Shown piece by piece: positions 1-62,016 of a DNA stretch of 64,000 bases. Both the position numbers and the translations under genes were made by a program. Positions within the stretch are counted from its first letter, which is position 1. Every line of letters starts with the position of its first letter. This stretch comes from an uncultured Candidatus Saccharibacteria bacterium (lineage in GTDB: Bacteria > Patescibacteriota > Minisyncoccia > 2-02-FULL-40-12 > GWA2-44-9): assembly GCA_964436165.1 (NCBI GenBank), contig CAYTBY010000001.1, positions 73,452 to 137,451 on the forward strand, read 5' to 3'. Below the pieces are notes generated by a model, which worked only from the letters and a program-made list of their open reading frames with translations, was not told the DNA's origin and searched no databases.

Positions 1-2373
1 TTGGGCCTTAGCGTGGGGTGTATAAACCATGATGGAAGCTACTTGTATGACGAAGGTCATACAACAAATCCCAAATCCCAAATCCCAAATTCCAAACAAA
101 TTCCAAATTCCAATGATCCCTCCTTCGCTGAAGCTTCCACCGTCGCTAAAGCTATGGCGGACAAGTCGGCGGGCAGGCAAAATTCAAAAGAAGAAAAATT
201 GGATAAAGAAAGAGATTTAACCGGAAGTTTCCATGTTGTTCATGAATTTTTGCGGCCGGTGACGAAGAAAGAGGCTTATGGCGCCGATATTACCTATGGT
301 ACTAATAATGAATATGGATTTGATTATTTGCGCGACAATATGGCCTACGATTCAAATCAGATGGCCCAAAGAACCGAGCACTCATTTGCAATCGTTGACG
401 AAGTCGATTCTATTTTAATTGACGAAGCCAGAACCCCGCTTATTATTTCCGCTCCCGACATTGATTCCGGAAAACTATACGAGACATTTTCCAGGGTTGT
501 CCCGAGTTTAAAAGAGAATGATGACTACAACGTTGATGAAAAACTCAAAGCTGTTTCTATAACTGAAAGCGGAATTGAAAAAGTTGAGAAAATGCTCGGT
601 CTTTCAAATATTTATGATGAAGGCGGAGTCCGTTATGTCCATCATTTGGAGCAAGCTCTAAAAGCCCAAATACTTTTTAGGCGGGATAAGGATTACGTGG
701 TCAAAGAGGGTGAAATTATTATTGTTGATGATTTCACGGGACGTTTAATGCCTGGCCGGCGCTGGTCGGAAGGTCTTCATCAGGCGATTGAGGCCAAAGA
801 GGGTGTCAATGTTCAGAAAGAGTCCCGGACTTTAGCCACTATTACTTTCCAGAATTATTTTCGTTTGTATAAAAAACTTGCCGGTATGACCGGAACGGCT
901 CGAACTTCAGCCGAGGAATTACACAAAGTATACAATATTGAGGTTATTTCCGTGCCGACAAATAAGCCGGCGATAAGAGGTGACTTAGCCGACAGGATTT
1001 ATAAAACAGAAATGGGCAAGTTCAAAGCAGTTGCCCGTGAAATTAAAGAACGAAACGAAAAGGGTCAGCCGGTTCTTATCGGGACGGTTTCTATTGAAAA
1101 AAATGAACTTCTCTCGATGCTTCTTCAGCGCGAAGGCGTTCAGCATAATATTTTAAATGCTAAAAATCATGAGAAAGAAGCAGAAATTATTGCTCAGGCG
1201 GGGCGCTTAGGTGCGGTGACGGTGGCGACCAACATGGCTGGCCGCGGCGTTGACATAATTCTTGGCGGCAACCCTGTTGAAGTCAAACTTCAACAGGGGG
1301 TGCGGGAGGCGGGGGGACTGCATGTAATTGGCACGGAGCGGCATGAAGCCCGCAGAATAGACGATCAGCTTCGCGGCCGTTCCGGCCGACAGGGCGATCC
1401 AGGTTCTTCTCAGTTTTTTGTTTCGACCGAAGATGATGTTATCCGCGTTTTTGGCGGTGACCGTCTGACGAATCTAATGAATACCCTTGGGATAGGGGAA
1501 GACGATGTTATAGAAAATCGTTTTGTTTCTCGGGCGATTGAGCAGGCCCAGTCAAGGATTGAAGGCCATAATTTTGATATTCGCAAATACGTTCTTGAGT
1601 ATGATGATGTGATGAATAAACACCGTGATGCCATCTATCGTTTGCGCAAAGAAATTTTGTTTTCTGATAATATTAAAGAAACTGTTTTGGGTTATGTTCT
1701 TGATGTCGTTAATCAAATAGTTATTCTCCATGCCCCTGAAGGAGAAACGGCCGAGTGGAATTTAGAAGAAATAGCCGAATCAATCAAAGCCCTTGTTGGT
1801 AGTCCGTCATCCGCCCCTTCTGGCGGAGGCGGAGGTTCTTTGCATTCTGAACTTCTGGAAGTTTCAAGCGATAAGAATTTTCATAAATTGTCAGAATATA
1901 TTCTTGATTATGTGACCAAGACCTATGAGGCTAAAGAGGGGGAAGTTGGAATTGAGATGATGAGACAACTTGAAAAGTTTGTTCTCTTGAGAACAATAGA
2001 CGAACTTTGGATGGATCATATTGAAGCGATGGAGTCGTTGCGTGAGTCGGTTCGTTTACGGGCTTACGGCCAGCGTGATCCGTTGATAGAATATAAAATC
2101 GAGGGTCAAAAAATGTTTGAGAATCTGCAAAATACGATCAAAGGCCAAGTGGCTAACCTCATTTTCAAAGTTTCGTTTATCCAACAACCGTGGGAAGTTA
2201 AGATGGAAGAGCGGAGACCTGATATTGTGGATAACGAATTAAGAAGTAAGAATAATGGTTTGGATGCTCAAAACCAAAATTCAAAATCCCAAATTCGTAA
2301 TTCAGCAGTTGGCCGCAACGACCCTTGTCCCTGTGGTAGCGGGAAGAAGTATAAGAAGTGTCATGGGGTCTAG
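1..2373 (+). CDS. secA: Preprotein translocase ATPase SecA, 5'-partial (ORF enters from window edge)
   Basis: Motifs KEAYGADITYGTNNEYGFDYLRDNMA, MAGRGVDIILGGN and RGRSGRQGDPGSS. C-terminal zinc finger NDPCPCGSGKKYKKCHG. Stop at 2371-2373. Confidence 0.9.
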   Translation: MGLSVGCINHDGSYLYDEGHTTNPKSQIPNSKQIPNSNDPSFAEASTVAKAMADKSAGRQNSKEEKLDKERDLTGSFHVVHEFLRPVTKKEAYGADITYGTNNEYGFDYLRDNMAYDSNQMAQRTEHSFAIVDEVDSILIDEARTPLIISAPDIDSGKLYETFSRVVPSLKENDDYNVDEKLKAVSITESGIEKVEKMLGLSNIYDEGGVRYVHHLEQALKAQILFRRDKDYVVKEGEIIIVDDFTGRLMPGRRWSEGLHQAIEAKEGVNVQKESRTLATITFQNYFRLYKKLAGMTGTARTSAEELHKVYNIEVISVPTNKPAIRGDLADRIYKTEMGKFKAVAREIKERNEKGQPVLIGTVSIEKNELLSMLLQREGVQHNILNAKNHEKEAEIIAQAGRLGAVTVATNMAGRGVDIILGGNPVEVKLQQGVREAGGLHVIGTERHEARRIDDQLRGRSGRQGDPGSSQFFVSTEDDVIRVFGGDRLTNLMNTLGIGEDDVIENRFVSRAIEQAQSRIEGHNFDIRKYVLEYDDVMNKHRDAIYRLRKEILFSDNIKETVLGYVLDVVNQIVILHAPEGETAEWNLEEIAESIKALVGSPSSAPSGGGGGSLHSELLEVSSDKNFHKLSEYILDYVTKTYEAKEGEVGIEMMRQLEKFVLLRTIDELWMDHIEAMESLRESVRLRAYGQRDPLIEYKIEGQKMFENLQNTIKGQVANLIFKVSFIQQPWEVKMEERRPDIVDNELRSKNNGLDAQNQNSKSQIRNSAVGRNDPCPCGSGKKYKKCHGV
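61..115 (+). repeat. Tandem heptamer repeat (CAAATCC/CAAATTC x about 7) inside secA coding sequence, encoding NPKSQIPNSKQIPNS
   Basis: Direct reading: caaatcccaaatcccaaatcccaaattccaaacaaattccaaattcc. A related caaaatcccaaattc recurs near the secA 3' end at about 2263-2300. Confidence 0.6.
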
Positions 2374-4639: not shown

Positions 4640-4869
4640 GCTAGGAGTTATGATATATCATAACAACTTGCGCCGCATGGGTTTAATAACTTTTCATGAA
4701 AACTACTAAAGTTAAAAATAAAAAAGAGAACAAAACCGATTGGAAATATTTTGATGATTGTCTGATCTGCAAAGCTATGGAAAAAGCTGATAAGCGGGGT
4801 AGAAATTTGTCTATGGAAGAATTAAAATCAGCATTTAAAGAACAGAATAAGAAAAATAATAAAACTTAA
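4640..4869 (+). repeat. Copy 1 of a duplicated module of about 230 bp (half-palindrome operator plus 57-aa CxxC gene); paralogous to 9380-9618
   Basis: About 85% nucleotide identity to 9380-9600, including gctaggagttatgatatatcataac, atgggtttaataa and the first approximately 90 nt of the small ORF. Confidence 0.7.
4696..4869 (+). CDS. Small lysine-rich CxxC protein (57 aa), hypothetical
   Basis: ORF MKTTKVKNKKENKTDWKYFDDCLICKAM... Its stop TAA directly abuts the ATG of the next gene (translational coupling). Paralog at 9436-9618. Confidence 0.5.
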   Translation: MKTTKVKNKKENKTDWKYFDDCLICKAMEKADKRGRNLSMEELKSAFKEQNKKNNKT

Positions 4870-9379: not shown

Positions 9380-9411
9380 GCTAGGAGTTATGATATATCA
9401 TAACTCCTAGC
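9380..9411. promoter_or_regulatory. Perfect 32-bp palindrome (putative operator) upstream of the small CxxC gene, copy 2
   Basis: gctaggagttatgatatatcataactcctagc equals its own reverse complement. Contains a tatgatat -10-like core. Only the left half is conserved in copy 1 (4640-4664). Confidence 0.55.
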
Positions 9412-9435
9412 ACTGTATGGGTTTAATAATTTTTT

Positions 9436-9618
9436 ATGAAAACCACTAAAGTTAAAAATAAAAAAGAGAACAAAACCGATTGGGAATATTTTGATGATTG
9501 CGGAATCTGCCAGGCCATGAAAGTAGCCGATAAACAAGGAAGAAGTCTATCGGGAAAAGAATTAGCAGAGGCATTTAAGAAGCAGAACAAAAAGAATAAT
9601 GATGAAAAATATAATTAG
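9436..9618 (+). CDS. Small lysine-rich CxxC protein (60 aa), paralog of 4696-4869
   Basis: MKTTKVKNKKENKTDWEYFDDCGICQAM...; N-terminus near-identical to copy 1. Confidence 0.5.
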   Translation: MKTTKVKNKKENKTDWEYFDDCGICQAMKVADKQGRSLSGKELAEAFKKQNKKNNDEKYN

Positions 9619-29782: not shown

Positions 29783-29812
29783 ATTATAATAATTAGGTAT
29801 TATCTAACGGGA

Positions 29813-30961
29813 TTGACTTCTATAACTAATAATGCTATTGTATGTGGAGGTACAATAGACTATCATAGGGTCATGTCAAATCAAGCAGTAATAACCAAAA
29901 CGGTCGCTTCTTTGGTAAAAAATATATCAACTCGCAACAAGGATATTATATCCAGGCGTTTTGGTTTGAAAACAGGCAAAAAGGAGACTCTGGAGTCGAT
30001 AGGCAAGAGCTATGGAATTACCAGGGAAAGAGTAAGGCAGATAGAGGAATTTTCCATTAACCAGTTGTCTAAGGTTGTTGCTTCGACTCCCGATGTTTCA
30101 AAATACGTTTCTTTGGCCAAGGAAATACTAGGCGGTAACGGGGGGGTGATGAGGGAGGCTGAGTTATTTAAAGCATTTAGCGGAAACGATAAGGAGAGTG
30201 TTGTAAATGCCTCGCTTGTTTTTATTCTTTCTCTGGCCGGCGAGCCTGCCTCGCCGACTCGCCTCGCCGAAGCCTCCGGCGTAGCGCGGGCAGGCGGGCC
30301 GGTAAGATTCGGTGAAAACGAGTCATACTATTCCTTCTGGGGTTTAAATAGGGAAAGTGCCGATATGTTTAAAAATGGGATTTCTGCCCTGGTCAGTTCA
30401 TTTGCAAAAAACGGAAGCCCGGTGGCTTATACCGACTTGGTTTCTTTTGCCCAGGCTAACAGCATCTCAAATTCTAAAGACGTTGTGGTTTATTTGAATT
30501 TGAGCAAGGAGCTTGGAAGAAATGTTTTTGGCCAAATTGGTTTAGCCAGTTGGGCCGAAGTAAAACCAAAAGGAGTCAGAGATAAAGCCTATTTGGTTTT
30601 GAAGAAAGAGAAAAATCCAAAACACTTTACCGAGATTGCCAAACTTATAAACTCAACCGGTTTTTCTGATAAGAGAGCTAATGTTCAGACTGTTCATAAC
30701 GAACTGATTAAGGATAAAAGATTCGTTTTAGTCGGCCGTGGAATGTATGGGTTATCGGAATGGGGTTATCAGCCGGGTACGGTCAAAGAAGTGTTGGTCA
30801 GCGTTCTCAAGAACCATGGCAAGCCCTTAGCCAAGGCCGAACTTGTGGCCAAGGTTTTGGATACCCGAATGGTCAAAGAAAACACAATATTATTAAATCT
30901 TCAGGATTCTAAAGTTTTTTCAAAACGGGAAGACGGAACTTACGTCTTAAAAAAGGCGTAA
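29813..30961 (+). CDS. Putative transcription factor: sigma-70 region-4-like HTH near the N-terminus plus C-terminal HARE-HTH-like domain
   Basis: TLESIGKSYGITRERVRQIEE is a sigma-70 region 4.2-type motif. C-terminal WGYQPGTVKEVLVSVLKNHGKPLAKAELVAKVL…FSKREDGTYVLKK is a HARE-HTH-like pattern. The probable start is ATG 29873. Confidence 0.45.
   Translation: MTSITNNAIVCGGTIDYHRVMSNQAVITKTVASLVKNISTRNKDIISRRFGLKTGKKETLESIGKSYGITRERVRQIEEFSINQLSKVVASTPDVSKYVSLAKEILGGNGGVMREAELFKAFSGNDKESVVNASLVFILSLAGEPASPTRLAEASGVARAGGPVRFGENESYYSFWGLNRESADMFKNGISALVSSFAKNGSPVAYTDLVSFAQANSISNSKDVVVYLNLSKELGRNVFGQIGLASWAEVKPKGVRDKAYLVLKKEKNPKHFTEIAKLINSTGFSDKRANVQTVHNELIKDKRFVLVGRGMYGLSEWGYQPGTVKEVLVSVLKNHGKPLAKAELVAKVLDTRMVKENTILLNLQDSKVFSKREDGTYVLKKA
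30233..30305 (+). repeat. GC-rich palindromic element inserted in frame in the 29813 gene (encodes LAGEPASPTRLAEASGVARAGGPV)
   Basis: ggccggcgagcctgcc…cgccgaagcctccggcg…ggcaggcgggccgg has nested inverted repeats. About 75% GC inside an approximately 38% GC gene. Confidence 0.5.
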
Positions 30962-42271: not shown

Positions 42272-43714
42272 ATGCAGCGTAATAATATACTTGAGACTAA
42301 AGATCTTGTTGGAAAAGAAGTTCAGCTTTTTGGCTGGGTTAATGTCCGGCGTGACCACGGCAAAATAATTTTTATAGATTTGCGTGACCGTTCAGGCGTG
42401 GTTCAGGCTGTTTTTGGCCCCTGGACTCAAGGACTTTACGAAACTGCCAATCAACTTAGGAGTGAATGGGTGATTCGGATCAAAGGCAAAGTCAAAGAAC
42501 GTCCGGAAAAAATGGTTAATCCAGAGACCGAAACAGGAAAGATTGAAATTGAACCCTTGGAATTAGAAGTCTTGAACGAGGCTCTTACCCCGCCCTTTCC
42601 CTTGGATACTCCAGGTGATGATATTGACGAGGATGTGCGTCTCAAATTCCGCTATTTAGATTTGCGGAGGCCGCGACTTCAGAAAAATATAAAATTTCGT
42701 TCAGATTTTGTCGATAGAATAAGACAATTTTTATTTAAAAAAGGTTTTGTAGAGATAGAAACCCCGATCTTATCGGCTCCTACACCCGAAGGTTCAAGGG
42801 ATTTTGTTGTTCCTTCCAGGTTGAATCCAGGTAAATTTTTTGCCCTACCTCAAAGTCCTCAACAATATAAACAGCTTTTAATGGTTGCCGGTTTTGAAAA
42901 GTATTTTCAAATAGCCAGATGTTTCCGTGACGAAGACTTGAGAGCTGACAGAGGATTTGAGCATACCCAAGTTGATATTGAAGTAAGTTTTATAAATCAG
43001 GAGGAATTTATGGCTTTGGATGAGGAAATGATGATTACGGTAGTAGGGGGTATGGGTTATAAAATAAAACAAAAACCTTTCCCGGTCTTTACCTATAAAG
43101 AAGCAGTGGAAAAATTTGGAGCTGATAAATTTGATTTGCGAACTGAAGAAGATAAGGCGAATGGTGTTCTGGCCTATGCCTGGGTTAAAGATTTTCCATT
43201 TTTTGAAAAAGTGGATGCTGCGCACGAAGACAAAAGGAGCGAATCCTCCTTCGCCAAGGCTTCGGAGGACGATGGGAAGTGGACGTTTACTCACAATCCA
43301 TTTTCACACGCCAAACCGGAGCATGTCGATTGGTTATTAAAAGGAGAACATATTGGCGAAATACTCACAACTCAATATGATCTAGTTTGTAATGGATTTG
43401 AAGTTGGCGGAGGAAGTATTCGAGCTCACAAGCCGGAGATGCTTCATGCGGTGTTTAGGATAATGGGTTATGGCGAGAAAGAGATCGAAGAACAATTTGG
43501 TCATATGTTAGAGGCTTTCAAGTACGGTGCTCCGCCTCATGGCGGAATTGCTCATGGGATTGAAAGAAATTTGATGACCCTGACGGGTGAGTCATATTTG
43601 CGAGAAACTCAGGCCTTTCCCCAGACAAGTTCCGGCCGGACTTCAGTTATGGCTGCACCGAGTGAGCTAAGCAAAAAACAACTCAAGGAGCTCCATCTAA
43701 AGATAGAAAAGTAG
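42272..43714 (+). CDS. aspS: Aspartate--tRNA ligase (short archaeal/eukaryal-type, no GAD insertion)
   Basis: N-terminal OB fold. Class II motif FQIARCFRDEDLRADRGFEHTQVDIE matches the AspRS signature FRDED.RADRQ.EFTQ.D.E. Confidence 0.85.
   Translation: MQRNNILETKDLVGKEVQLFGWVNVRRDHGKIIFIDLRDRSGVVQAVFGPWTQGLYETANQLRSEWVIRIKGKVKERPEKMVNPETETGKIEIEPLELEVLNEALTPPFPLDTPGDDIDEDVRLKFRYLDLRRPRLQKNIKFRSDFVDRIRQFLFKKGFVEIETPILSAPTPEGSRDFVVPSRLNPGKFFALPQSPQQYKQLLMVAGFEKYFQIARCFRDEDLRADRGFEHTQVDIEVSFINQEEFMALDEEMMITVVGGMGYKIKQKPFPVFTYKEAVEKFGADKFDLRTEEDKANGVLAYAWVKDFPFFEKVDAAHEDKRSESSFAKASEDDGKWTFTHNPFSHAKPEHVDWLLKGEHIGEILTTQYDLVCNGFEVGGGSIRAHKPEMLHAVFRIMGYGEKEIEEQFGHMLEAFKYGAPPHGGIAHGIERNLMTLTGESYLRETQAFPQTSSGRTSVMAAPSELSKKQLKELHLKIEK
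43236..43268 (+). repeat. 30-nt palindromic repeat inserted in frame in aspS (encodes SSFAKASED); a second copy lies in the Mur ligase at 61529-61558
   Basis: tcctccttcgccaaggcttcggaggacg vs tcctctttcgcgcaaggcttcggaggacg: 27/29 identical, with TCCTCC/GGAGGA inverted arms. Confidence 0.55.
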
Positions 43715-49037: not shown

Positions 49038-49075
49038 ATGTTTATAATATGTCCGGTCGGACATATTATAAACAT
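49038..49075. promoter_or_regulatory. Perfect 18-2-18 palindrome (putative autoregulatory operator overlapping a TATAAT) upstream of the PaaX-like gene
   Basis: atgtttataatatgtccg-gt-cggacatattataaacat. Confidence 0.6.
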
Positions 49076-49104
49076 ATATATTCTGATATTAATATTAACC
49101 AAAA

Positions 49105-49623: not shown

Positions 49624-49649
49624 TAAAAATAGCCGCTTAAATAATTACA

Positions 49650-49682
49650 TTTATAAAGTGTCCGACCGGACATAGTATAAAC
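49650..49682. promoter_or_regulatory. Second, imperfect copy of the TTTATAA-N-GTCCG-N2-CGGAC palindrome, downstream of the regulator and upstream of the 49765 operon
   Basis: tttataaagtgtccg-ac-cggacatagtataaac; the centre is inverted relative to the site at 49038-49075. Confidence 0.55.
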
Positions 49683-51695: not shown

Positions 51696-53807
51696 TTATT
51701 TGTTTAGGGGGGCTAGATCACTCTTTATTTTTCTTATCTGCTCCCTTAGCGTCAAAGCTCTGTCGTACTCCATTTTTTTGGCGGCCCGTTCCATCATTTT
51801 GGTAAGTTGAGCGACAATCTTGCCTTTACTGCTATTACCAAAAACAAAAACCGTATCATCTTCTTCCTGGCCCCAACGACGAGTTTTACTAGTTCCATTA
51901 TTGGAAATCGGGAGGTCAAAATTACTAATTGATTTTTGAATGGTTGTTGGCGTAATGTCGTTGGCTTTATTGTGCTCTTCCTGTTTGGTTCTTCGGCGCA
52001 TGGTTTCGCCGATCGAAGCTTTAATTGATTTAGTCAACTTATCGGCATACATAATAACATGCCCGTTAACGTGTCTGGCCGCTCGGCCCATAGTTTGGAT
52101 TAGCGTCGTGGTATTGCGGAGGAATCCTTCTTTATCGGCGTCGAGGATGGCGATCAGTGAAACTTCAGGCAAATCCAAGCCTTCTCGCAAAAGATTTACT
52201 CCAACTAAGACATCATGGTGGCCCAGGCGGAAGTCCTTTAATATTTTTAATCGTTCAAGGGTTTTAATCTCAGAATGAATGTAGTTAACTTTTATTTTGG
52301 CATCGGCCAGATACTCCGATAAATCTTCGGCCATTCTCTTGGTTAAAGTGGTAACGATAACCCTTTCTTTATTCGCAGTCCGCTTTTTAATTTCTGAAAG
52401 CAGGTGTTCCATCTGATTTTTGCTAGGTTGTATTTCTATAGTCGGATCTAAGAGTCCTGTCGGCCGGATAAGCTGTTCGGCAATATTTGCTTTACCGGCC
52501 TTTTCAAGTTCATATATTCCGGGTGTGGCTGAAACATAAACTGTTTTCTGTATTCTTTTATTAAATTCTAAAAACTTTAACGGCCGGTTATCAAGGGCTG
52601 ACGGCAAGCGGAAACCGTAGTCAACTAGGGTGCTTTTTCTGGAATGATCCCCGTTAAACATTCCCCTGATCTGGGGAATAGAAATATGCGACTCGTCCAT
52701 AATGGTCAGGAATTCCCCCTTTGATCCGCCTTTGGCGGAAAAGAAATCAATCAGGGTATAGGGCGGTTCGCCAGGTTTGCGGAAATCAAGATGCCGCGAG
52801 TAGTTCTCAATGCCGTGGCAGTAGCCGGTTCGTTTCATCATGTCAATGTCGTACATTGTTTTTTCGTAAAGCCGGGCCGCTTCCTGGAGTTTTTTGGCTT
52901 TCTTTAAAACTTTCATTGTTTGCTGAAGTTCGCCTTTTATATTTTCTATAGCGATGGCAATTTTACTATCCGAAGTCAGCCAGTATTTTGCCGGTAGAAT
53001 TGTGGTTTCGACTATTTTTTCAAACTCAGGTTCTTTGGTTTCAAGTTCTTCCGGTTCAGAGATAGTGGCATGCATGACTTTGATCCCGTACGAAGTAGCC
53101 GCGCTGCGGTCCTTAGGACTCGCGACGAAGTCGCGAGCGCGACTTCGTACGGGATTATCCATGCTATTATTCGGAAACGTTATTTTAAAAATATTCTGGC
53201 CATCGGGGCCCATCAGTTCTATTTCATTTCTTGTTTTTCGGAAACATCCGCGCTTCAATTCTATATCTTGGGCATACTGGAGCCGTATCAATCCGCGGAT
53301 AAGTTCGTCCGGTTTTATTTTCTGGCCTTCAAATATGTTGAGGCCCATGTTTCTATATTCTTCCGGTGAGCCAAGGTTGTAGATGCAAGAAACAGAGGCG
53401 ACAATAATTACATCATCTCGTGACATTAAGGCTTGGGTTGTGGCATGGCGAAGCCGGTCAAGCTCCTCGTTTATTTTAGAATCTTTTTCGATGTAGGTGT
53501 CAGTGTGAGGTATGTAGGCTTCGGGCTGGTAGTAGTCGTAATATGAAACGAAATAATGGACGGCGTTGTGCGGGAAAAATTCTTTGAATTCTTTATATAA
53601 TTGGGCGGCGAGGGTCTTGTTGTGGGAAATAATCAGAGTTGGTTTCTGGTACTGCTCAATGACTTTAGCCATCGTAAACGTTTTTCCGCTTCCGGTTACA
53701 CCCAAAAGCACCTGGTGTTTTTTCCCGGACTTTAATCCCTTGGCGAGTTGTTGAATCGCCTGTGGCTGATCTCCTGTTGGCGAATATTTTGATATCAGTT
53801 TAAACAC
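51696..53807 (-). CDS. uvrB: Excinuclease ABC subunit B
   Basis: GVTGSGKTFTMAKVIE, YFVSYYDYYQPEAY, …GYCHGIENYSRHLD…; full length, about 45 aa longer than typical in domain 2. Confidence 0.9.
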   Translation of the reverse strand: MFKLISKYSPTGDQPQAIQQLAKGLKSGKKHQVLLGVTGSGKTFTMAKVIEQYQKPTLIISHNKTLAAQLYKEFKEFFPHNAVHYFVSYYDYYQPEAYIPHTDTYIEKDSKINEELDRLRHATTQALMSRDDVIIVASVSCIYNLGSPEEYRNMGLNIFEGQKIKPDELIRGLIRLQYAQDIELKRGCFRKTRNEIELMGPDGQNIFKITFPNNSMDNPVRSRARDFVASPKDRSAATSYGIKVMHATISEPEELETKEPEFEKIVETTILPAKYWLTSDSKIAIAIENIKGELQQTMKVLKKAKKLQEAARLYEKTMYDIDMMKRTGYCHGIENYSRHLDFRKPGEPPYTLIDFFSAKGGSKGEFLTIMDESHISIPQIRGMFNGDHSRKSTLVDYGFRLPSALDNRPLKFLEFNKRIQKTVYVSATPGIYELEKAGKANIAEQLIRPTGLLDPTIEIQPSKNQMEHLLSEIKKRTANKERVIVTTLTKRMAEDLSEYLADAKIKVNYIHSEIKTLERLKILKDFRLGHHDVLVGVNLLREGLDLPEVSLIAILDADKEGFLRNTTTLIQTMGRAARHVNGHVIMYADKLTKSIKASIGETMRRRTKQEEHNKANDITPTTIQKSISNFDLPISNNGTSKTRRWGQEEDDTVFVFGNSSKGKIVAQLTKMMERAAKKMEYDRALTLREQIRKIKSDLAPLNK
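53088..53153 (-). repeat. 66-bp GC-rich nested-palindrome element inserted in frame in uvrB (encodes VRSRARDFVASPKDRSAATSYG)
   Basis: cgtacgaagt…gtccttaggac…tcgcgacgaagtcgcga…acttcgtacg. Outer 10-bp inverted arms plus two internal perfect palindromes. About 68% GC inside an approximately 40% GC gene. Confidence 0.6.
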
Positions 53808-53823
53808 GTGTTACTCTTAAGGC

Positions 53824-54810: not shown

Positions 54811-55827
54811 ATGAAATCATTCCTACAAACTAAAGAGTGGTTGGAGTTTCAGAAGGAAGTAGGCCACAAGACGTGGCGATTTTCGAATGGCCCTACTTCG
54901 CTAGGAAGCTTCGAAGGGCAAGGAAAAATAACGGCCAATATTATTAAACTGGGTTTGCCTTTGGGCAAGAGTTTTTTATATATACCTCATGGGCCGGAGA
55001 TTGATTTTAATAAGATTCAAAGCGGATTGAAAAATGAACTGGCGAATTTCGTAAAATATTTAAAGGACTTAGCTAAGGCGGAAAAAGCCATTTTTATAAA
55101 AATAGAACCTTTTTCGGACGTAGTCATTGAGCTTTTGCATGTCAAAGGAATGCGCCGGTCATCCAAACAAATCCAGCCGTATAAAACGGTGGTTCTTGAT
55201 TTAAGTTTACCTGAAGAGCATTTACTGGGGAAAATGCATGCTAAGACAAGGTATAATATTAAAGTTGCTGAGAACAACGGCATTGTTGTTAAGGACAGCA
55301 ACGATCTAGATACTTTTTGGAAATTATTAGGCAAGACGACAAAGCGTGATAGATTTGCCAGTCATCCTAAAGTTTATTATAAAAAACTGCTGGAGCATTT
55401 TCCCGCCGAAGGCGGATCCGCCTCTGGCGGAAATGATATGAAAGTCGATTTGGTTATGGCGTACCTGCCCGCCGGACAGGAGGGTCATAACGATCGGGCT
55501 GTGGCCGGAGCAATATTGATGACTTATGGTGATACCTGCTATTATCTTTACGGTGCTTCTGACTATGAGTACAGGTCGGTAATGGCCCCATATGCGCTTC
55601 ACTGGGAGAATATAAAGTATTTGAAAGGTCGAGGTATAAAATACTACGATTTTTGGGGGATTGATGCCCAGAAATGGCCAGGGGTGACGAGATTTAAACT
55701 TGGTTGGCTTGGCTCGCCGAAGTCAGACGAAGGCGGCGGGGGACTAAAAGAATATCCCGGTTCCTTTGATTTAGTTACCTCTAAATTTTGGTATTTTGTT
55801 TATAACATTGCCAGAAAAGTATTTTAG
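54811..55827 (+). CDS. FemAB-family peptidoglycan aminoacyltransferase-like protein
   Basis: N-terminus FLQTKEWLEFQKEVGHKTWRF resembles FemX/FemAB starts. Length and tandem GNAT-fold pattern are consistent. Contains a Gly-rich insert (GGSASGGND) over the DNA palindromes ccgccgaaggcgg/gcggatccgc. Confidence 0.5.
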   Translation: MKSFLQTKEWLEFQKEVGHKTWRFSNGPTSLGSFEGQGKITANIIKLGLPLGKSFLYIPHGPEIDFNKIQSGLKNELANFVKYLKDLAKAEKAIFIKIEPFSDVVIELLHVKGMRRSSKQIQPYKTVVLDLSLPEEHLLGKMHAKTRYNIKVAENNGIVVKDSNDLDTFWKLLGKTTKRDRFASHPKVYYKKLLEHFPAEGGSASGGNDMKVDLVMAYLPAGQEGHNDRAVAGAILMTYGDTCYYLYGASDYEYRSVMAPYALHWENIKYLKGRGIKYYDFWGIDAQKWPGVTRFKLGWLGSPKSDEGGGGLKEYPGSFDLVTSKFWYFVYNIARKVF

Positions 55828-58323: not shown

Positions 58324-58475
58324 GCTCTTATTTTAAACTGTAAGTTTTTGACTTTTCATTCGTCTTTTAAAATAGTAAGGTAATTTATAATAAACTTTTA
58401 CGTTTGGCTATGTTCAAGGCCTAAAAGCCTTTTTGGGCAGGAGTTGAATTAAGCCAAGGTAAGGAAGGCAATAAA

Positions 58476-59321
58476 TTGTATAAATCGAAATCATTAATAA
58501 CGCTAGTTATCGGCGGCGTTCTTATGGTCGGTGTCGCCTTAGGTTCTTATATGTCAAGCGGATCGGTTCCGTTTGCTTTTGCCCATGATGATGACGATGA
58601 TGAGCAAAAAGTAGATAAAGAAGTTCTAGAGCAGTTATATTTGGCCGCTTTCGGCAGGCCGGTTGATGAGAATGGCAAGAAGTTCCATCTTGGTAAAAAT
58701 TTGAAACAAGTTTTAAGAGACATCAATAGCTCCGAAGAGCGAAGATACTATTCGGCTTTATTTAAGGCCGTAAAGGCCTATGAAGAAGCGGTGCGAGCGC
58801 CAGGTGATTTGAGCGCGGCTGATAAACAGAAATATCTTGATGCTATCAATACGGCTCTTGCAACTTTACTAGCCTGGGTTGAGACATTGCCTCAACAGCA
58901 CATTTGTAATGGAGTGGTCGGAATTATGGAGGCCCGTCAAGCTATTCAGGATGCGTATGATCGTATGAGCCCCACTGCCCAAGCTGCATCTCGAAAAGGA
59001 ATTTTCAATGCCCTGAAGCATATCGGTGGTCCTAAGAATATTGATTTACCGTTTAAGCGTTGTATAGATCCAAGCCCAACCCCGTCCCCATCTGTAAGCC
59101 CGACACCTTCAGTAACACCAACCCCAAGTGTAACTCCAACCCCGAGTGTAACCCCAACACCGAGTGCAACTCCAACCCCGACTCCTTCTGCAACTCCCAC
59201 TCCCACTCCCACGCCCTCCGCAACTCCCACCCCGACACCCGAAGTAACCCCGACTCCCACTCCGTCAGCTACCCCAACCCCGACTCCATCAGTCACTCCG
59301 ACTCCGACCCCTACTCCGTAA
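58476..59321 (+). CDS. Secreted protein with C-terminal Pro/Thr/Ser-rich tandem-repeat tail
   Basis: TTG start with RBS aaggaagg. Signal-like N-terminus. C-terminal (PTPS[VA]T)n for about 80 aa. Confidence 0.5.
59071..59318 (+). repeat. Coding tandem repeat (about 18-nt units) encoding the PT-rich linker
   Basis: ccaaccccgagtgtaactccaaccccgagtgtaacccc… repeated, degenerate. Confidence 0.7.
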
Positions 59322-60558: not shown

Positions 60559-62016
60559 ATGCTCAAAGAAAGTAGTTTAGACAAAATACTTTATAGAGTC
60601 AAGAAGCTGATTCCGGGATCAGTTTTTAATTTTTTTCAGCCGTATTATCACGCTGTCTTAGCTTATGCCGGTGCGGCTTTTTACGGTTTTCCGTCAAGAA
60701 AATTAAAAGTTATTGGTGTGACCGGAACAAAAGGCAAGTCAACCGTTGTTTATCTGGCTTCTAAATTATTAGAAGCCAGGCTTCAAGGTGGACAGAAGCC
60801 TGGCTTCGGGAAGAGTGGAGTCGCCGCTTGCGGTTCCCTTGGTTTTAAAATAAAGAGTAAGGAATGGCCAAATACTTTAAAAATGACTATGCCCGGCCGG
60901 TTTCGTCTGCAGAAACTCATGGCCGAAGCGGTTAGGGCCGGCTGTGAATACTTTATTCTTGAAGTTACCTCCGAGGGCATCAAACAGAAAAGGCATTTGG
61001 GTATTTGGTTTGATTGCGCCGTTTTTACCAATCTTCACAAAGAACATATTGAAAGCCACGGTTCATTCGAGAATTATTATCAGGCCAAGCAGGAATTATT
61101 CAGGCGGACAAAAAATATCCATGTTATCAATGCCGATGACCAGTATACCAAATTATTAGGTGATTTTCCGGCTGAACATAAAATATTTTACGGTTTTACC
61201 AAAGGTGACTTGGTTGCCGGTAATTTAAAACTTTCTGATCTCGGTTCTTCTTTTGAGGTTTATGGTACGACTTATAATATCCACCTGGCCGGGAAGTTTA
61301 ATATTTTAAATTGTCTGGCTGTTTTATCGATCGGCGCGATGTATGGCATAGATCTGCCCTCGGCAAAACATATACTAGAATCAGTCAAATTTATCCCTGG
61401 CAGAATGGAGTTTATCCCTGCCTTCGTTAAAACTTCGGCGGGCGAGCAAAAAGAACCGTTCAAGGTGGTGGTGGATTATGCACATACACCCGAGTCGTTA
61501 CGAAGTGTTTATGAAACGTTAAAAAATAGTCCTCTTTCGCGCAAGGCTTCGGAGGACGCCCAAAATACAAAACGTAAGCTTATATGTATTTTGGGCGCTG
61601 CCGGGGGCGGGAGGGACAAGTGGAAGAGGCCGGAGTTTGGGAGAATAGCGGCGCAGTACTGTGATGAAATAATTCTGACGAATGAAGACCCCTATGAAGA
61701 AAACCCAGAAGCAATTCTGGAAGAAATTGCTTCTGGGTTTTCGCAAGCGCCAAATCACAAATCATCCCGATTTTATCGAGGATCCTCGATTGCAAAGCAA
61801 TCGGGACAAATCACAAATAAATCCCAAGCTCCAAATGTCCAAAAAATTATGGATAGAAAAGAAGCCATAAAGAAGGCCTTGACTTTAGCTCAAGAGGGTG
61901 ATACTGTAATCATCACGGGCAAAGGTTCGGAGACTTCAATGGCCGTATCGGGGAATAGGAAAATTCCCTGGTCGGACAAGGGAGTTATTGAGGAGTTTTT
62001 GACGACGAAATACTGA
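60559..62016 (+). CDS. Mur ligase family protein (MurE-like)
   Basis: VIGVTGTKGKSTV (P-loop), …DYAHTPESL…; carries two in-frame repeat insertions (61529-61558 and 61751-61818). Confidence 0.7.
   Translation: MLKESSLDKILYRVKKLIPGSVFNFFQPYYHAVLAYAGAAFYGFPSRKLKVIGVTGTKGKSTVVYLASKLLEARLQGGQKPGFGKSGVAACGSLGFKIKSKEWPNTLKMTMPGRFRLQKLMAEAVRAGCEYFILEVTSEGIKQKRHLGIWFDCAVFTNLHKEHIESHGSFENYYQAKQELFRRTKNIHVINADDQYTKLLGDFPAEHKIFYGFTKGDLVAGNLKLSDLGSSFEVYGTTYNIHLAGKFNILNCLAVLSIGAMYGIDLPSAKHILESVKFIPGRMEFIPAFVKTSAGEQKEPFKVVVDYAHTPESLRSVYETLKNSPLSRKASEDAQNTKRKLICILGAAGGGRDKWKRPEFGRIAAQYCDEIILTNEDPYEENPEAILEEIASGFSQAPNHKSSRFYRGSSIAKQSGQITNKSQAPNVQKIMDRKEAIKKALTLAQEGDTVIITGKGSETSMAVSGNRKIPWSDKGVIEEFLTTKY
61751..61818 (+). 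mobile_element. MITE-like element inserted in frame in the Mur ligase gene: 12-bp direct repeats flanking a 40-bp palindromic core
   Basis: caaatcacaaat | cat-cccgatt-ttATCGAGGATCCTCGATtgcaaagc-aatcggg-a | caaatcacaaat. Encodes HKSSRFYRGSSIAKQSGQITNK between duplicated SQAPN. Confidence 0.6.

What the first reader, a model, noticed from the sequence alone, without database searches (positions are those of the whole stretch)
43236..43268. Same ~30-nt palindromic repeat inserted in frame in two unrelated essential genes (aspS and the Mur ligase)
tcctccttcgcc-aaggcttcggaggacg (aspS, 43236-43268) and tcctctttcgcgcaaggcttcggaggacg (Mur ligase, 61529-61558) are about 93% identical and carry TCCTCC/GGAGGA inverted arms. 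Both are read in the same relative frame, giving the shared peptide KASED. Unrelated proteins have no reason to share 30 nt, so this is a dispersed repeat colonising coding sequence.
Basis: seen in the sequence. Interest (0 to 1): 0.65.

Follow-up and report, generated by a model that had tools for sequence, protein, structure and literature searches.

The report
Mobile hairpin repeat inside essential genes
A 30-base, GC-rich hairpin repeat of a family found across many bacterial phyla sits in frame in surface loops of at least four conserved genes (three of them essential in model bacteria) of this small-genome Patescibacteria bacterium, adding short peptides such as SSFAKASED, much as palindromic elements do in Rickettsia genes.

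Summary
Copy A is at 43244-43273 in aspS and copy B at 61530-60 in a MurE-type ligase. They differ by one substitution and one indel.

They belong to a family with a 30-nt unit: YCCKCC-TTCGCCAAGGCTTC-GGMGGR-CARG. This is a 6-bp stem, a TTC/TTC internal mismatch, a 3-bp inner stem, a 2-nt loop and a 4-nt tail.

A covariance model finds 6-7 copies in the 64 kb window. All lie inside conserved genes: SecA, AspRS, a FemAB-family gene (two) and the Mur ligase (two). Each lies in a segment that most orthologues lack. One filled/empty comparison gives an insertion of exactly 30 nt.

An AspRS orthologue carries the same core in the opposite orientation at the same site. The exact 26-nt hairpin of copy A occurs in at least 120 metagenome contigs. 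In low-GC contigs it is in frame in DprA, CTP synthase, TopA, RecG, RecR, QueG and L10.

The 16-nt core occurs in genomes of many phyla, with co-varying stems, and often abuts tRNA 3' ends.

Best reading: a REP-like, non-autonomous hairpin element that survives in genes because it is 10 codons long and stop-free in all six frames. How it moves is unknown. I found no Rfam family and no paper describing it.

The parts
43244..43273 (+). Copy A. The 30-nt unit TCCTCC TTCGCCAAGGCTTC GGAGGA CGAT in aspS, read as SSFAKASEDD (residues 325-334).
   Evidence: CM R1 scores 48.6 bits, but this copy was in the training set.
43211..43264 (+). The whole lineage-specific 18-codon (54-nt) AspRS insertion as the alignment places it (VDAAHEDKRSESSFAKAS). 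The placement is ambiguous by a few nt. It comprises copy A plus about 24 nt upstream. That upstream part shares GCTGCGCAC..GAAG with the reverse-orientation copy in orthologue L001 and may be a decayed older copy.
   Evidence: Alignment of 120 orthologues. DNA of filled and empty sites. AlphaFold pLDDT is below 50 for residues 316-334.
61530..61560 (+). Copy B. TCCTCT TTCGCGCAAGGCTTC GGAGGA CGCC in the MurE-type ligase, read as (S)PLSRKASEDA. Its loop is one nt longer than in the consensus.
   Evidence: CM R1 scores 27 bits, E = 5e-5, and this copy was not in the training set. Orthologous copies occur in L244 and L245.
61417..61446 (+). Copy C. CCTGCC TTCGTTAAAACTTC GGCGGG CGAG in the same ligase, read as PAFVKTSAGE. 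The inner stem is GTT/AAC instead of GCC/GGC, a compensatory change.
   Evidence: It is an insertion of exactly 30 nt relative to the empty sites in L244, L245 and L246. CM R1 scores 41 bits; this copy was in the training set.
54891..54922 (+). Copy D. CCCTAC TTCGCTAGGAAGCTTC GAAGGG CAAG in a FemAB-family gene, read in another frame as GPTSLGSFEGQ.
   Evidence: Structural scan. CM R1 E = 1.3e-5, not in the training set. The segment is occupied in 3% of 119 orthologues. Pfam FemAB.
55708..55737 (-). Copy E, in reverse orientation. On the + strand it reads CTTG GCTCGCC GAA GTC A GAC GAA GGCGGC. It lies in the FemAB-family gene and is read as LGSPKSDEG.
   Evidence: CM R1 E = 0.006 on the minus strand, not in the training set. 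The segment is occupied in 16% of orthologues.
118..165 (+). Two overlapping, degenerate units in SecA: CCCTCC TTCGCTGAAGCTTC CACCGT.. and TCCACC GTCGCTAAAGCTAT GGCGGA CAAG. They lie within a roughly 46-residue lineage-specific insertion (nt 55-192) that begins with CAAATCC-type heptamer runs.
   Evidence: CM R1 scores 35.6 bits at 136-165; these copies were in the training set. SecA homologues lack the segment. Pfam SecA domains.
60781..60807 (+). A different in-frame palindromic insertion in the ligase (LQGGQKPGF). It has a perfect 13-bp stem, GAAGCCAGGCTTC/GAAGCCTGGCTTC.
   Evidence: absent from orthologues. (dG -25.9 kcal/mol).
61753..61818 (+). A fourth lineage-specific insertion in the ligase (NHKSSRFYRGSSIAKQSGQITN), made of nested palindromes such as ATCGAGGATCCTCGAT.
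55405..55485 (+). Two further hairpin-forming in-frame insertions in the FemAB-family gene: AEGGSAS and LPAGQEG. The peptide EGGSASGG also occurs at the AspRS insertion site in orthologues P0002-P0004.

Best explanation
The two segments are copies of a short, non-autonomous, REP-like stem-loop element. Its consensus unit is 30 nt: YCCKCC-TTCGCCAAGGCTTC-GGMGGR-CARG. On the other strand this reads CYTG-stem-GAA-GCC-TT-GGC-GAA-stem.

The family is spread over many bacterial phyla. Copies arrive at the DNA level in either orientation. In this gene-dense Patescibacteria genome most surviving copies lie inside genes. There they persist only in permissive, disordered surface loops.

They can persist because the unit is 10 codons long and has no stop codon in any of the six frames. 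The ribosome therefore reads through it and adds a short, mostly small or polar-residue peptide (SSFAKASED, PAFVKTSAGE, SEALAKE and so on).

Shown here: family membership, multiple copies, insertion status, both orientations, several reading frames, and stem covariation.

Inferred only: that the element is selfish or mobile, and that a hairpin-specific enzyme of the HUH/RAYT type, or some other trans-acting factor, mobilises it. No such enzyme was identified.
For: Family and structure. The genome scan retrieved loci by the 16-nt core only. Among 122 such copies, 58 have six perfect Watson-Crick pairs directly flanking the core and 36 have a single mismatch. The stem is exactly 6 bp. Position 3 switches G-C/T-A (52/34) and position 6 switches T-A/C-G (46/42). 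A CARG tail follows the stem. Inner-stem variants are compensatory: GCC/GGC, GTT/AAC, GCT/AGC.

Copies in the window. There are 6-7, all in coding sequence. Three that were not used to build the model score E = 1e-5 to 6e-3. A strict structural scan finds 3 where shuffles give 0.085.

Insertion status. AspRS. Ligase: with copy C exactly 30 nt relative to three empty sites. FemAB-family gene. SecA.

Orientation and arrangement. L001 has the same core in reverse orientation at the same AspRS site, a net gain of 30 nt. L003 has a forward plus a reverse unit there.

Dispersal. The exact 26-mer occurs in at least 120 metagenome contigs. In low-GC contigs it is in frame in DprA, CTP synthase, an HD-domain protein, TopA, RecG, RecR, QueG and L10. 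Several contigs carry 2-3 copies.

Reading-frame properties. 75% of units are open in all six frames, against 21% of shuffled units. This largely restates the consensus, because the fixed 14-nt core is itself stop-free.

Location in the protein. The insertion is the least confident part of the AspRS model.

Precedent. The layout of tag, stem, non-complementary trinucleotides, GC inner stem and 2-4 nt loop matches the REP layout described in PMC3733652, which also reports REPs inside genes.
Against: No transposase or other protein recurs next to the element in 120 genome loci. No target-site duplication or conserved target sequence is visible. So mobility is not demonstrated.

The 14-nt loop is conserved across phyla, unlike the largely species-specific REP families I know of (my recollection, not tested here).

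Copy B is better conserved than its host gene at third codon positions: 10/10 and 8/10 identical, against gene-wide rates of 0.60 and 0.48. That hints at constraint on the nucleotide sequence, or at repeated replacement.

Several copies abut or overlap tRNA/tmRNA 3' ends with the stem built on the CCA. A simple cut-and-paste model does not predict this.

Only 64 kb of the genome was available, so genome-wide copy number is unknown.
Confidence: 0.68

Rival explanations
1. The hairpin is a functional cis-acting nucleic-acid structure in mRNA or single-stranded DNA, kept by selection. It might be a binding site for a conserved protein, a ribosome-pausing or RNA-stability element, or a tRNA 3'-end processing or termination signal. 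On this view the coding-region copies are recruited, not merely tolerated.
For: Two helices co-vary around invariant unpaired nucleotides, which is the usual signature of a selected structure. The loop is conserved across phyla. Orthologous copies of B keep their arms and third codon positions better than the rest of the gene does. Copies are placed precisely at tRNA/tmRNA 3' ends on the same strand. The opposite strand would form a CUUG-type loop and tandem G.A pairs; this is read from the sequence using general knowledge of RNA motifs.
Against: Distribution among close orthologues is patchy, and empty sites occur in the nearest relatives. Both orientations occur at the same AspRS site. Orientation is roughly even in low-GC ORF copies, 7 forward and 7 reverse. 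There is no excess of G.T over A.C mismatches on either strand (8 against 7), so no sign of RNA-strand selection. Contexts are very diverse: coding in several frames, intergenic, and nested inside other copies. No Rfam family matches.
Confidence: 0.15
2. The segments come from a DNA-repair or replication process, not from a transposable unit. For example, a common hairpin sequence could be patched in by template switching or microhomology-mediated repair at fragile or permissive sites. Part of the stem would be copied from, or matched to, the flanking host sequence.
For: In tRNA-adjacent copies the left arm contains the tRNA's own CCA and the right arm is its complement. CCAGCC/GGCTGG is seen next to tRNA-Leu, tRNA-Tyr and a tmRNA. 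In L001 the right arm overlaps the conserved Trp codon. In copy E the host GGCGG forms part of an arm, and only 27 nt are extra. No transposase was found. Many unrelated palindromes are also inserted in frame in the same genes.
Against: Copy C is a complete 30-nt unit with both arms absent from the empty sites. The arms fall into a few recurrent types (YCCKCC), so they do not simply mirror arbitrary flanks. Local template switching cannot explain an identical 14-nt loop in distant phyla; a shared source sequence would be needed.
Confidence: 0.12
3. The shared sequence reflects selection on the encoded peptide (KASED / FAKAS), or is a chance resemblance between low-complexity loops.
For: In low-GC ORF copies of the exact 26-mer only three of the six frames are seen: SSFAKASED 7, SSEALAKED 5, LRSLGEGG 2. 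This suggests that the peptide filters which insertions survive.
Against: Chance is excluded. Window copies are read in at least three different frames and both orientations, giving unrelated peptides: SSFAKASED, SPLSRKASED, GPTSLGSFEGQ, LGSPKSDEG. Copies also lie outside genes. The insertion is predicted to be disordered.
Confidence: 0.03

Closest known systems
REP elements (repetitive extragenic palindromes), especially GTAG-tagged REPs and the intragenic REPs described by Di Nocera et al. 2013 (PMC3733652)
   Same: Size of 20-40 nt. The same modular layout: a 4-nt tag at one end, a 6-9 bp GC-rich stem, non-complementary di- or trinucleotides, a GC inner stem and a 2-4 nt loop. Compensatory stem variation. 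Occurrence as single units, as head-to-head or tail-to-tail pairs, and in clusters. Some copies inside genes.
   Different: The tag is CARG/CYTG, not GTAG or CGTC. The loop sequence is shared across many phyla, so it is not specific to a species or genus. In this window every copy is intragenic. No RAYT gene was seen.
Rickettsia palindromic elements (RPEs; Ogata et al. 2000, from my own knowledge; literature context)
   Same: Palindromic repeats inserted in frame into many unrelated, often essential, protein genes of a reduced genome. They are tolerated in surface regions and also found in RNA genes and intergenic DNA.
   Different: RPEs are about 100-150 bp and restricted to Rickettsia. This unit is 30 nt, is found in many phyla, and has a defined two-helix hairpin with a conserved loop.
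Mitochondrial GC clusters, repetitive hairpin-forming elements and coding palindromes (sponge RHEs PMC2800124; Nematomorpha PMC6649704; yeast GC clusters from my own knowledge)
   Same: GC-rich hairpin elements scattered in an AT-rich, compact genome, including in-frame insertions in protein genes.
   Different: They occur in organelles and have unrelated sequences. The Nematomorpha palindromes are much longer.
Bacterial MITEs found inside genes (Correia and others; review PMC2229807)
   Same: Small non-autonomous repeats found both between and within genes, sometimes extending or modifying ORFs.
   Different: MITEs have terminal inverted repeats and target-site duplications and are usually over 100 bp. 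No duplication is seen at the copy C junctions.

Membership tests
REP (repetitive extragenic palindrome) | Short (20-40 nt) imperfect palindrome that forms a GC-rich stem-loop | tested here: met
   The unit is 30 nt, with a 6-bp stem and a 3-bp inner stem.
REP (repetitive extragenic palindrome) | Modular layout: terminal 4-nt tag, stem, non-complementary nucleotides, GC inner stem, 2-4 nt loop | tested here: met
   CARG tail (C 85/122, A 74/122, G 67/122). TTC/TTC mismatch. GCC/GGC inner stem. AA loop. Compared with the description in PMC3733652.
REP (repetitive extragenic palindrome) | Conserved GTAG or CGTC tetranucleotide tag | tested here: not met
   The tag is CARG, which is CYTG on the other strand.
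REP (repetitive extragenic palindrome) | Predominantly extragenic location | tested here: not met
   All 6-7 copies in the window lie inside conserved genes. In other taxa many copies are intergenic or next to tRNAs.
REP (repetitive extragenic palindrome) | High copy number within a genome | tested here: inconclusive
   About one copy per 10 kb in the 64 kb available, and 2-3 copies on several short contigs. The whole genome was not available.
REP (repetitive extragenic palindrome) | Association with a RAYT (Y1/HUH transposase) in the genome | not testable with these tools
   No recurrent protein family appears in 120 loci of 8 kb. However, RAYTs are single-copy and need not be adjacent, so whole genomes would be needed.
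RPE (Rickettsia palindromic element) | In-frame insertion in unrelated protein-coding genes, absent from orthologues | tested here: met
RPE (Rickettsia palindromic element) | Length of about 100-150 bp and sequence homology to RPE families of Rickettsia | tested here: not met
   The unit is 30 nt. The hosts are Patescibacteria and many other phyla. The RPE length is taken from my own knowledge.
MITE | Terminal inverted repeats plus a target-site duplication | tested here: not met
   At copy C the junctions are GAGTTTATC|unit|CAAAAAGAA, against the empty site GAGTTTCTA|CAAAGAGAG. There is no duplication. The whole unit is one hairpin, not a body flanked by terminal inverted repeats.
Rfam structured RNA families | Match to a curated covariance model | tested here: not met
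   Only tRNA and tmRNA hits appear in the window and in 36 loci at the gathering threshold.

The most novel reading that the evidence does not exclude
The element may be an undescribed hairpin class present across many bacterial phyla. It has two co-varying helices around invariant TTC..AA..TTC (GAA..TT..GAA) nucleotides and a CARG tag. On this reading it is propagated or maintained by a still unknown, widely distributed machinery. It would insert preferentially exactly at the 3' end of tRNA/tmRNA genes and into the loops of other copies. It might build part of its stem from the target sequence, which would make it a mode of mobility or templated insertion distinct from REP/RAYT. In Patescibacteria it would also be a general source of new loop peptides in essential proteins.
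Probability: 0.2. Interest if true: 0.85.

Novelty: new variant of a known kind. Interest (0 to 1): 0.62.

Why it matters
First, it shows that core enzymes of ultra-small Patescibacteria (AspRS, MurE-type ligase, SecA, a FemAB-family enzyme, and in relatives TopA, RecG, RecR, CTP synthase and L10) are repeatedly invaded by a tiny hairpin repeat. Until now this picture was mainly associated with Rickettsia.

Second, it explains many odd low-complexity peptides in metagenomic proteins (FAKASED, SEALAKE, LRSLGEGG, FVKTSAG). These peptides mislead alignments, domain boundaries and structure predictions.

Third, the family's conserved loop, co-varying stems, spread across many phyla and precise placement at tRNA 3' ends point to an unidentified trans-acting partner. 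The family therefore offers a concrete way to find how REP-like elements spread.

Fourth, the 30-nt unit, open in all six frames, is a simple example of a repeat that can enter coding sequence without breaking the reading frame.

Tried and rejected
- Rfam at gathering threshold, on the window and on 36 loci: only tRNA and tmRNA were found.
- Literature search by the sequence itself in four spellings: no paper.
- Keyword searches for in-frame palindromes in CPR, Patescibacteria or Parcubacteria: nothing specific.
- BLAST of the 30-nt consensus against 72,556 plasmids: only weak or partial matches, so the family is rare there.
- The first viral-contig scan, with a 14-nt degenerate core, gave mostly chance hits. 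Only about 7 of 120 had complementary arms of 5 bp or more. It served as a rough null. My first arm-pairing script was off by one base and was corrected.
- Guilt by association: all-against-all BLASTP of 2,965 ORFs from the 120 genome loci found no protein family shared by more than 8 loci. The few shared sets are synteny among Caulobacterales.
- RNA-strand test by mismatch type: G.T 8 against A.C 7, so it is uninformative.
- I could not derive the upstream 24 nt of the AspRS insertion cleanly from the reverse copy in L001. It remains a possible decayed copy only.
- The covariation table is on sequences pre-filtered for paired arms, so it is not independent evidence. The unbiased figures are those.
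- ORF-based coding calls for contigs with GC above 0.5 are unreliable and were not used.
Full report
OBSERVATION. Both segments exist. Copy A, TCCTCCTTCGCCAAGGCTTCGGAGGACG, lies at 43244-43271. Copy B, TCCTCTTTCGCGCAAGGCTTCGGAGGACG, lies at 61530-61558. They differ by one substitution and one 1-nt indel.

Copy A is in a 480-aa ORF with Pfam tRNA-synt_2 and the anticodon OB domain. Copy B is in a 485-aa ORF with Mur_ligase_M/C. Sources name the ligase's homologues UDP-MurNAc-L-Ala-D-Glu--2,6-diaminopimelate ligase. Only the 3' 15 nt are read in the same frame (KASED). Upstream of the indel the frames differ: SSFA against SPLSR.

The best protein matches are Candidatus Yanofskybacteria and other Patescibacteria. 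A protein identical to the ligase is on record on a 152,652-nt contig.

BOTH SEGMENTS ARE INSERTIONS. In an alignment of 120 AspRS orthologues, about 100 read FPFFEK-xxxGx-WTFTHNPFS. The window has 18 extra residues, VDAAHEDKRSESSFAKAS. The DNA of the closest orthologue (L002, 86% identity) shows an empty site.

About twenty other orthologues carry different insertions at exactly this point. L001 and four others have AAHSEALA(K/E)E. At the DNA level this is the same core in the opposite orientation (TCCGAAGCCTTGGCG), and it is a net gain of 30 nt. L003 has a forward unit, CCTGC-TTCGCGCAAGGCTTC-GCAGG, followed by a reverse unit.

An AlphaFold model has a mean pLDDT of 71, from a shallow 26-sequence alignment. 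Its lowest confidence falls on residues 316-334, which is the insertion.

The ligase has four lineage-specific in-frame insertions compared with 120 orthologues. All four form hairpins:
- LQGGQKPGF, with a perfect 13-bp stem and dG -25.9.
- PAFVKTSAGE, which is copy C.
- SPLSRKASEDAQN, which is copy B.
- NHKSSRFYRGSSIAKQSGQITN, made of nested palindromes.

Compared with three orthologues that have an empty site, copy C is an insertion of exactly 30 nt, CCTGCCTTCGTTAAAACTTCGGCGGGCGAG, with no target duplication.

THE FAMILY. Retrieval used the core only, so the flanks are an unbiased sample. Of 122 copies, 58 have six perfect Watson-Crick pairs directly flanking the 14-nt loop and 36 have one mismatch.

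Pairing stops sharply after 6 bp. Position 3 switches between G-C (52) and T-A (34). Position 6 switches between T-A (46) and C-G (42). The stem is followed by C-A-R-G.

The unit is therefore YCCKCC TTCGCCAAGGCTTC GGMGGR CARG, 30 nt in all. Within the loop, GCC/GGC forms a 3-bp inner stem between two TTC triplets. Variants of the inner stem are compensatory: GTT/AAC in copy C and GCT/AGC in SecA. One search is on pre-filtered sequences.

The hosts named in the records include Verrucomicrobiota, Planctomycetota, Bacteroidota (for example Niastella soli), Alphaproteobacteria (Bradyrhizobium, Brevundimonas, Caulobacter), Acidobacteriota, Cyanobacteria, Omnitrophota, Dependentiae, Saccharibacteria and other Patescibacteria.

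COPIES IN THE WINDOW. A covariance model of the unit (R1) was run with filters off and finds these copies:
- 136-165 in SecA, overlapping a second degenerate unit at 118-147.
- 43244-43273, copy A.
- 54891-54922, copy D, E = 1.3e-5.
- 55708-55737 on the minus strand, copy E, E = 0.006.
- 61417-61446, copy C.
- 61530-61560, copy B, E = 5e-5.

Copies B, D and E were not used to build the model. A strict structural scan finds 3 hits where shuffles give 0.085.

Copies D and E lie in a FemAB-family gene. Their segments are occupied in only 3% and 16% of 119 orthologues. The same gene has two more hairpin insertions.

The SecA copies lie in a roughly 46-residue segment that is absent from other SecA proteins, including other Patescibacteria-like ones. 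So every copy found in the window is inside a conserved gene, in a segment that most orthologues lack.

The copies are read in at least three frames and both orientations: SSFAKASED, PAFVKTSAGE, SPLSRKASED, GPTSLGSFEGQ, LGSPKSDEG.

DISPERSAL ELSEWHERE. Among 28 contigs with GC below 0.5, 14 copies lie in ORFs of 150 aa or more. Seven are forward (SSFAKASED) and seven reverse (SSEALAKED or LRSLGEGG).

Pfam identifies the host proteins as DprA, CTP synthase, an HD-domain protein, topoisomerase I, RecG, RecR, QueG and ribosomal protein L10. The model finds second and third copies on a dozen low-GC contigs, and none in the 10-kb locus with the empty AspRS site.

In high-GC contigs the unit is often part of larger composites. 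About 22 contigs share a roughly 170-nt arrangement in which a forward unit sits inside the loop of a reverse-type unit..ACCCGCC GAAGC [... ] GC GAAG GCGGGT...

WHY IT SURVIVES IN GENES. The unit is 10 codons long. The consensus has no stop codon in any of the six frames. 75% of real units are open in all six, against 21% of shuffled units, though the fixed core contributes to this figure.

Individual units are 29-32 nt long, yet every coding insertion observed is a multiple of three: 27, 30, 33 and 54 nt. That is what selection for read-through translation predicts. Removal of the segment from the mRNA would not predict it.

WHAT IT MOST RESEMBLES. The layout matches that described for GTAG-type REPs: a 4-nt tag, a 6-9 bp stem, non-complementary di- or trinucleotides, a GC inner stem and a 2-4 nt loop. 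The same paper reports REPs inside genes and pairs in opposite orientation (PMC3733652).

Functionally it is the Patescibacteria counterpart of the Rickettsia palindromic elements (for literature context; details from my own knowledge). It also resembles mitochondrial GC-rich hairpin elements.

It fails REP membership on the tag (CARG/CYTG, not GTAG/CGTC) and on extragenic location. It fails RPE membership on length and taxon. It fails MITE membership because there is no target duplication.

No Rfam family matches. No paper contains the sequence. Plasmids hardly carry it.

WHAT REMAINS UNEXPLAINED.
(i) No linked gene. No protein family recurs in the 120 genome loci, so the mobilising activity, if there is one, is unknown.
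(ii) Twelve of 125 genome copies lie within 60 nt of a tRNA or tmRNA gene. In six of these the unit starts exactly at the 3' end or overlaps it. Next to tRNA-Leu, tRNA-Tyr and a tmRNA the stem is CCAGCC/GGCTGG, so it uses the tRNA's own CCA. This suggests a target preference, templating of an arm from the flank, or retention as a processing or termination signal.
(iii) Orthologous copies of B in genes with 67-80% protein identity are 87-93% identical at the nucleotide level. Their third codon positions are identical at 10/10 and 8/10 sites, against gene-wide rates of 0.60 and 0.48 (binomial p about 0.007 and 0.04 by my own calculation). This could mean constraint, homogenisation or repeated re-insertion.
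(iv) Mismatch types show no RNA-strand bias: G.T 8 against A.C 7.

VERDICT. The segments are copies of a dispersed, REP-like 30-nt hairpin element that has colonised coding sequence.

The similarity between A and B is family-level similarity. It is not evidence of a recent jump between the two genes.

I rate it a new variant of a known kind. It is of moderate to high interest because of the family's breadth across phyla, its structural conservation, its density in essential genes of a reduced genome, and the unexplained link to tRNA 3' ends.

Noticed in passing
L125, L155, L157, L163, L195, L222 (genome loci): The 30-nt unit starts exactly at, or overlaps by 3-4 nt, the 3' end of a tRNA or tmRNA gene on the same strand. 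In L155, L195 and L222 the stem CCAGCC/GGCTGG incorporates the encoded CCA. Twelve of 125 copies lie within 60 nt of a tRNA or tmRNA.
   Followed up: partly
about 22 of L247-L366, including L249, L253, L273, L278: About 22 high-GC metagenome contigs share a roughly 170-nt composite in which a forward unit is nested in the loop of a reverse-type unit and flanked by CCACGG..CCGTGG hairpins. No Rfam family matches it. It may be a larger repeat or an unknown structured RNA.
   Followed up: partly
window 55-192; L129: The SecA insertion begins with CAAATCC/CAAATTC heptamer runs (peptide NPKSQIPNSKQIPNS) before the hairpin units. A Saccharibacteria locus shows the same arrangement, with GAAATCC runs on both sides of a unit. 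Similar heptamer-derived peptides (NPKSETNSKFQI) fill the ligase loop in many orthologues.
   Followed up: partly
window 30227-30314: An 88-nt, very GC-rich palindrome (dG -47 kcal/mol) lies inside the ORF of a Sigma70_r4/HARE-HTH protein (29783-30961). It was not compared with orthologues.
   Followed up: no
window 53085-53143 (gene on - strand): A 59-nt nested palindrome (dG -31 kcal/mol) lies inside uvrB (51696-53810). PMC3733652 notes that intragenic REPs are often found in replication and repair genes.
   Followed up: no
window 1802-1839: A second GC-rich hairpin in SecA (TCCGCC CCTTCT GGCGGA with an outer stem; z = -3.6). It has the family's typical arms but a different loop.
   Followed up: no
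window 61528-61566 and orthologues P0122-P0240: The ligase loop after VYxTLK is a hotspot. Orthologues carry at least six different repeat-derived peptide types there: SRKASED, LRQAQG, STSLRAS, NPKSETNSKFQI, LRITNYGLRIK, EFPISNFQF.
   Followed up: partly
window 61530-61560 vs L244, L245: Copy B is more conserved than its host gene. Third codon positions are identical at 10/10 and 8/10 sites, against gene-wide rates of 0.60 and 0.48.
   Followed up: partly
L307: A RecG helicase on a low-GC contig carries the hairpin in frame. It also has a PD-(D/E)XK nuclease domain (PF13366) inserted in the helicase core.
   Followed up: no
window 49040-49082 / 49640-49682: A 43-nt inverted repeat pair, 84% complementary, flanks 557 nt. 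Each arm is itself palindromic (..ATATGTCCGGTCGGACATAT..). It could be a small mobile or regulatory cassette.
   Followed up: no
window 4640-4860 / 9380-9600: A 221-nt direct repeat, 80% identical and 4.7 kb apart. Each copy begins with a 33-nt palindrome.
   Followed up: no
window 59073-59317: A tandem array of degenerate 18/24-nt periods rich in ACCCC/ACTCC lies inside ORF 58425-59321. It probably encodes a Thr/Pro-rich low-complexity linker.
   Followed up: no
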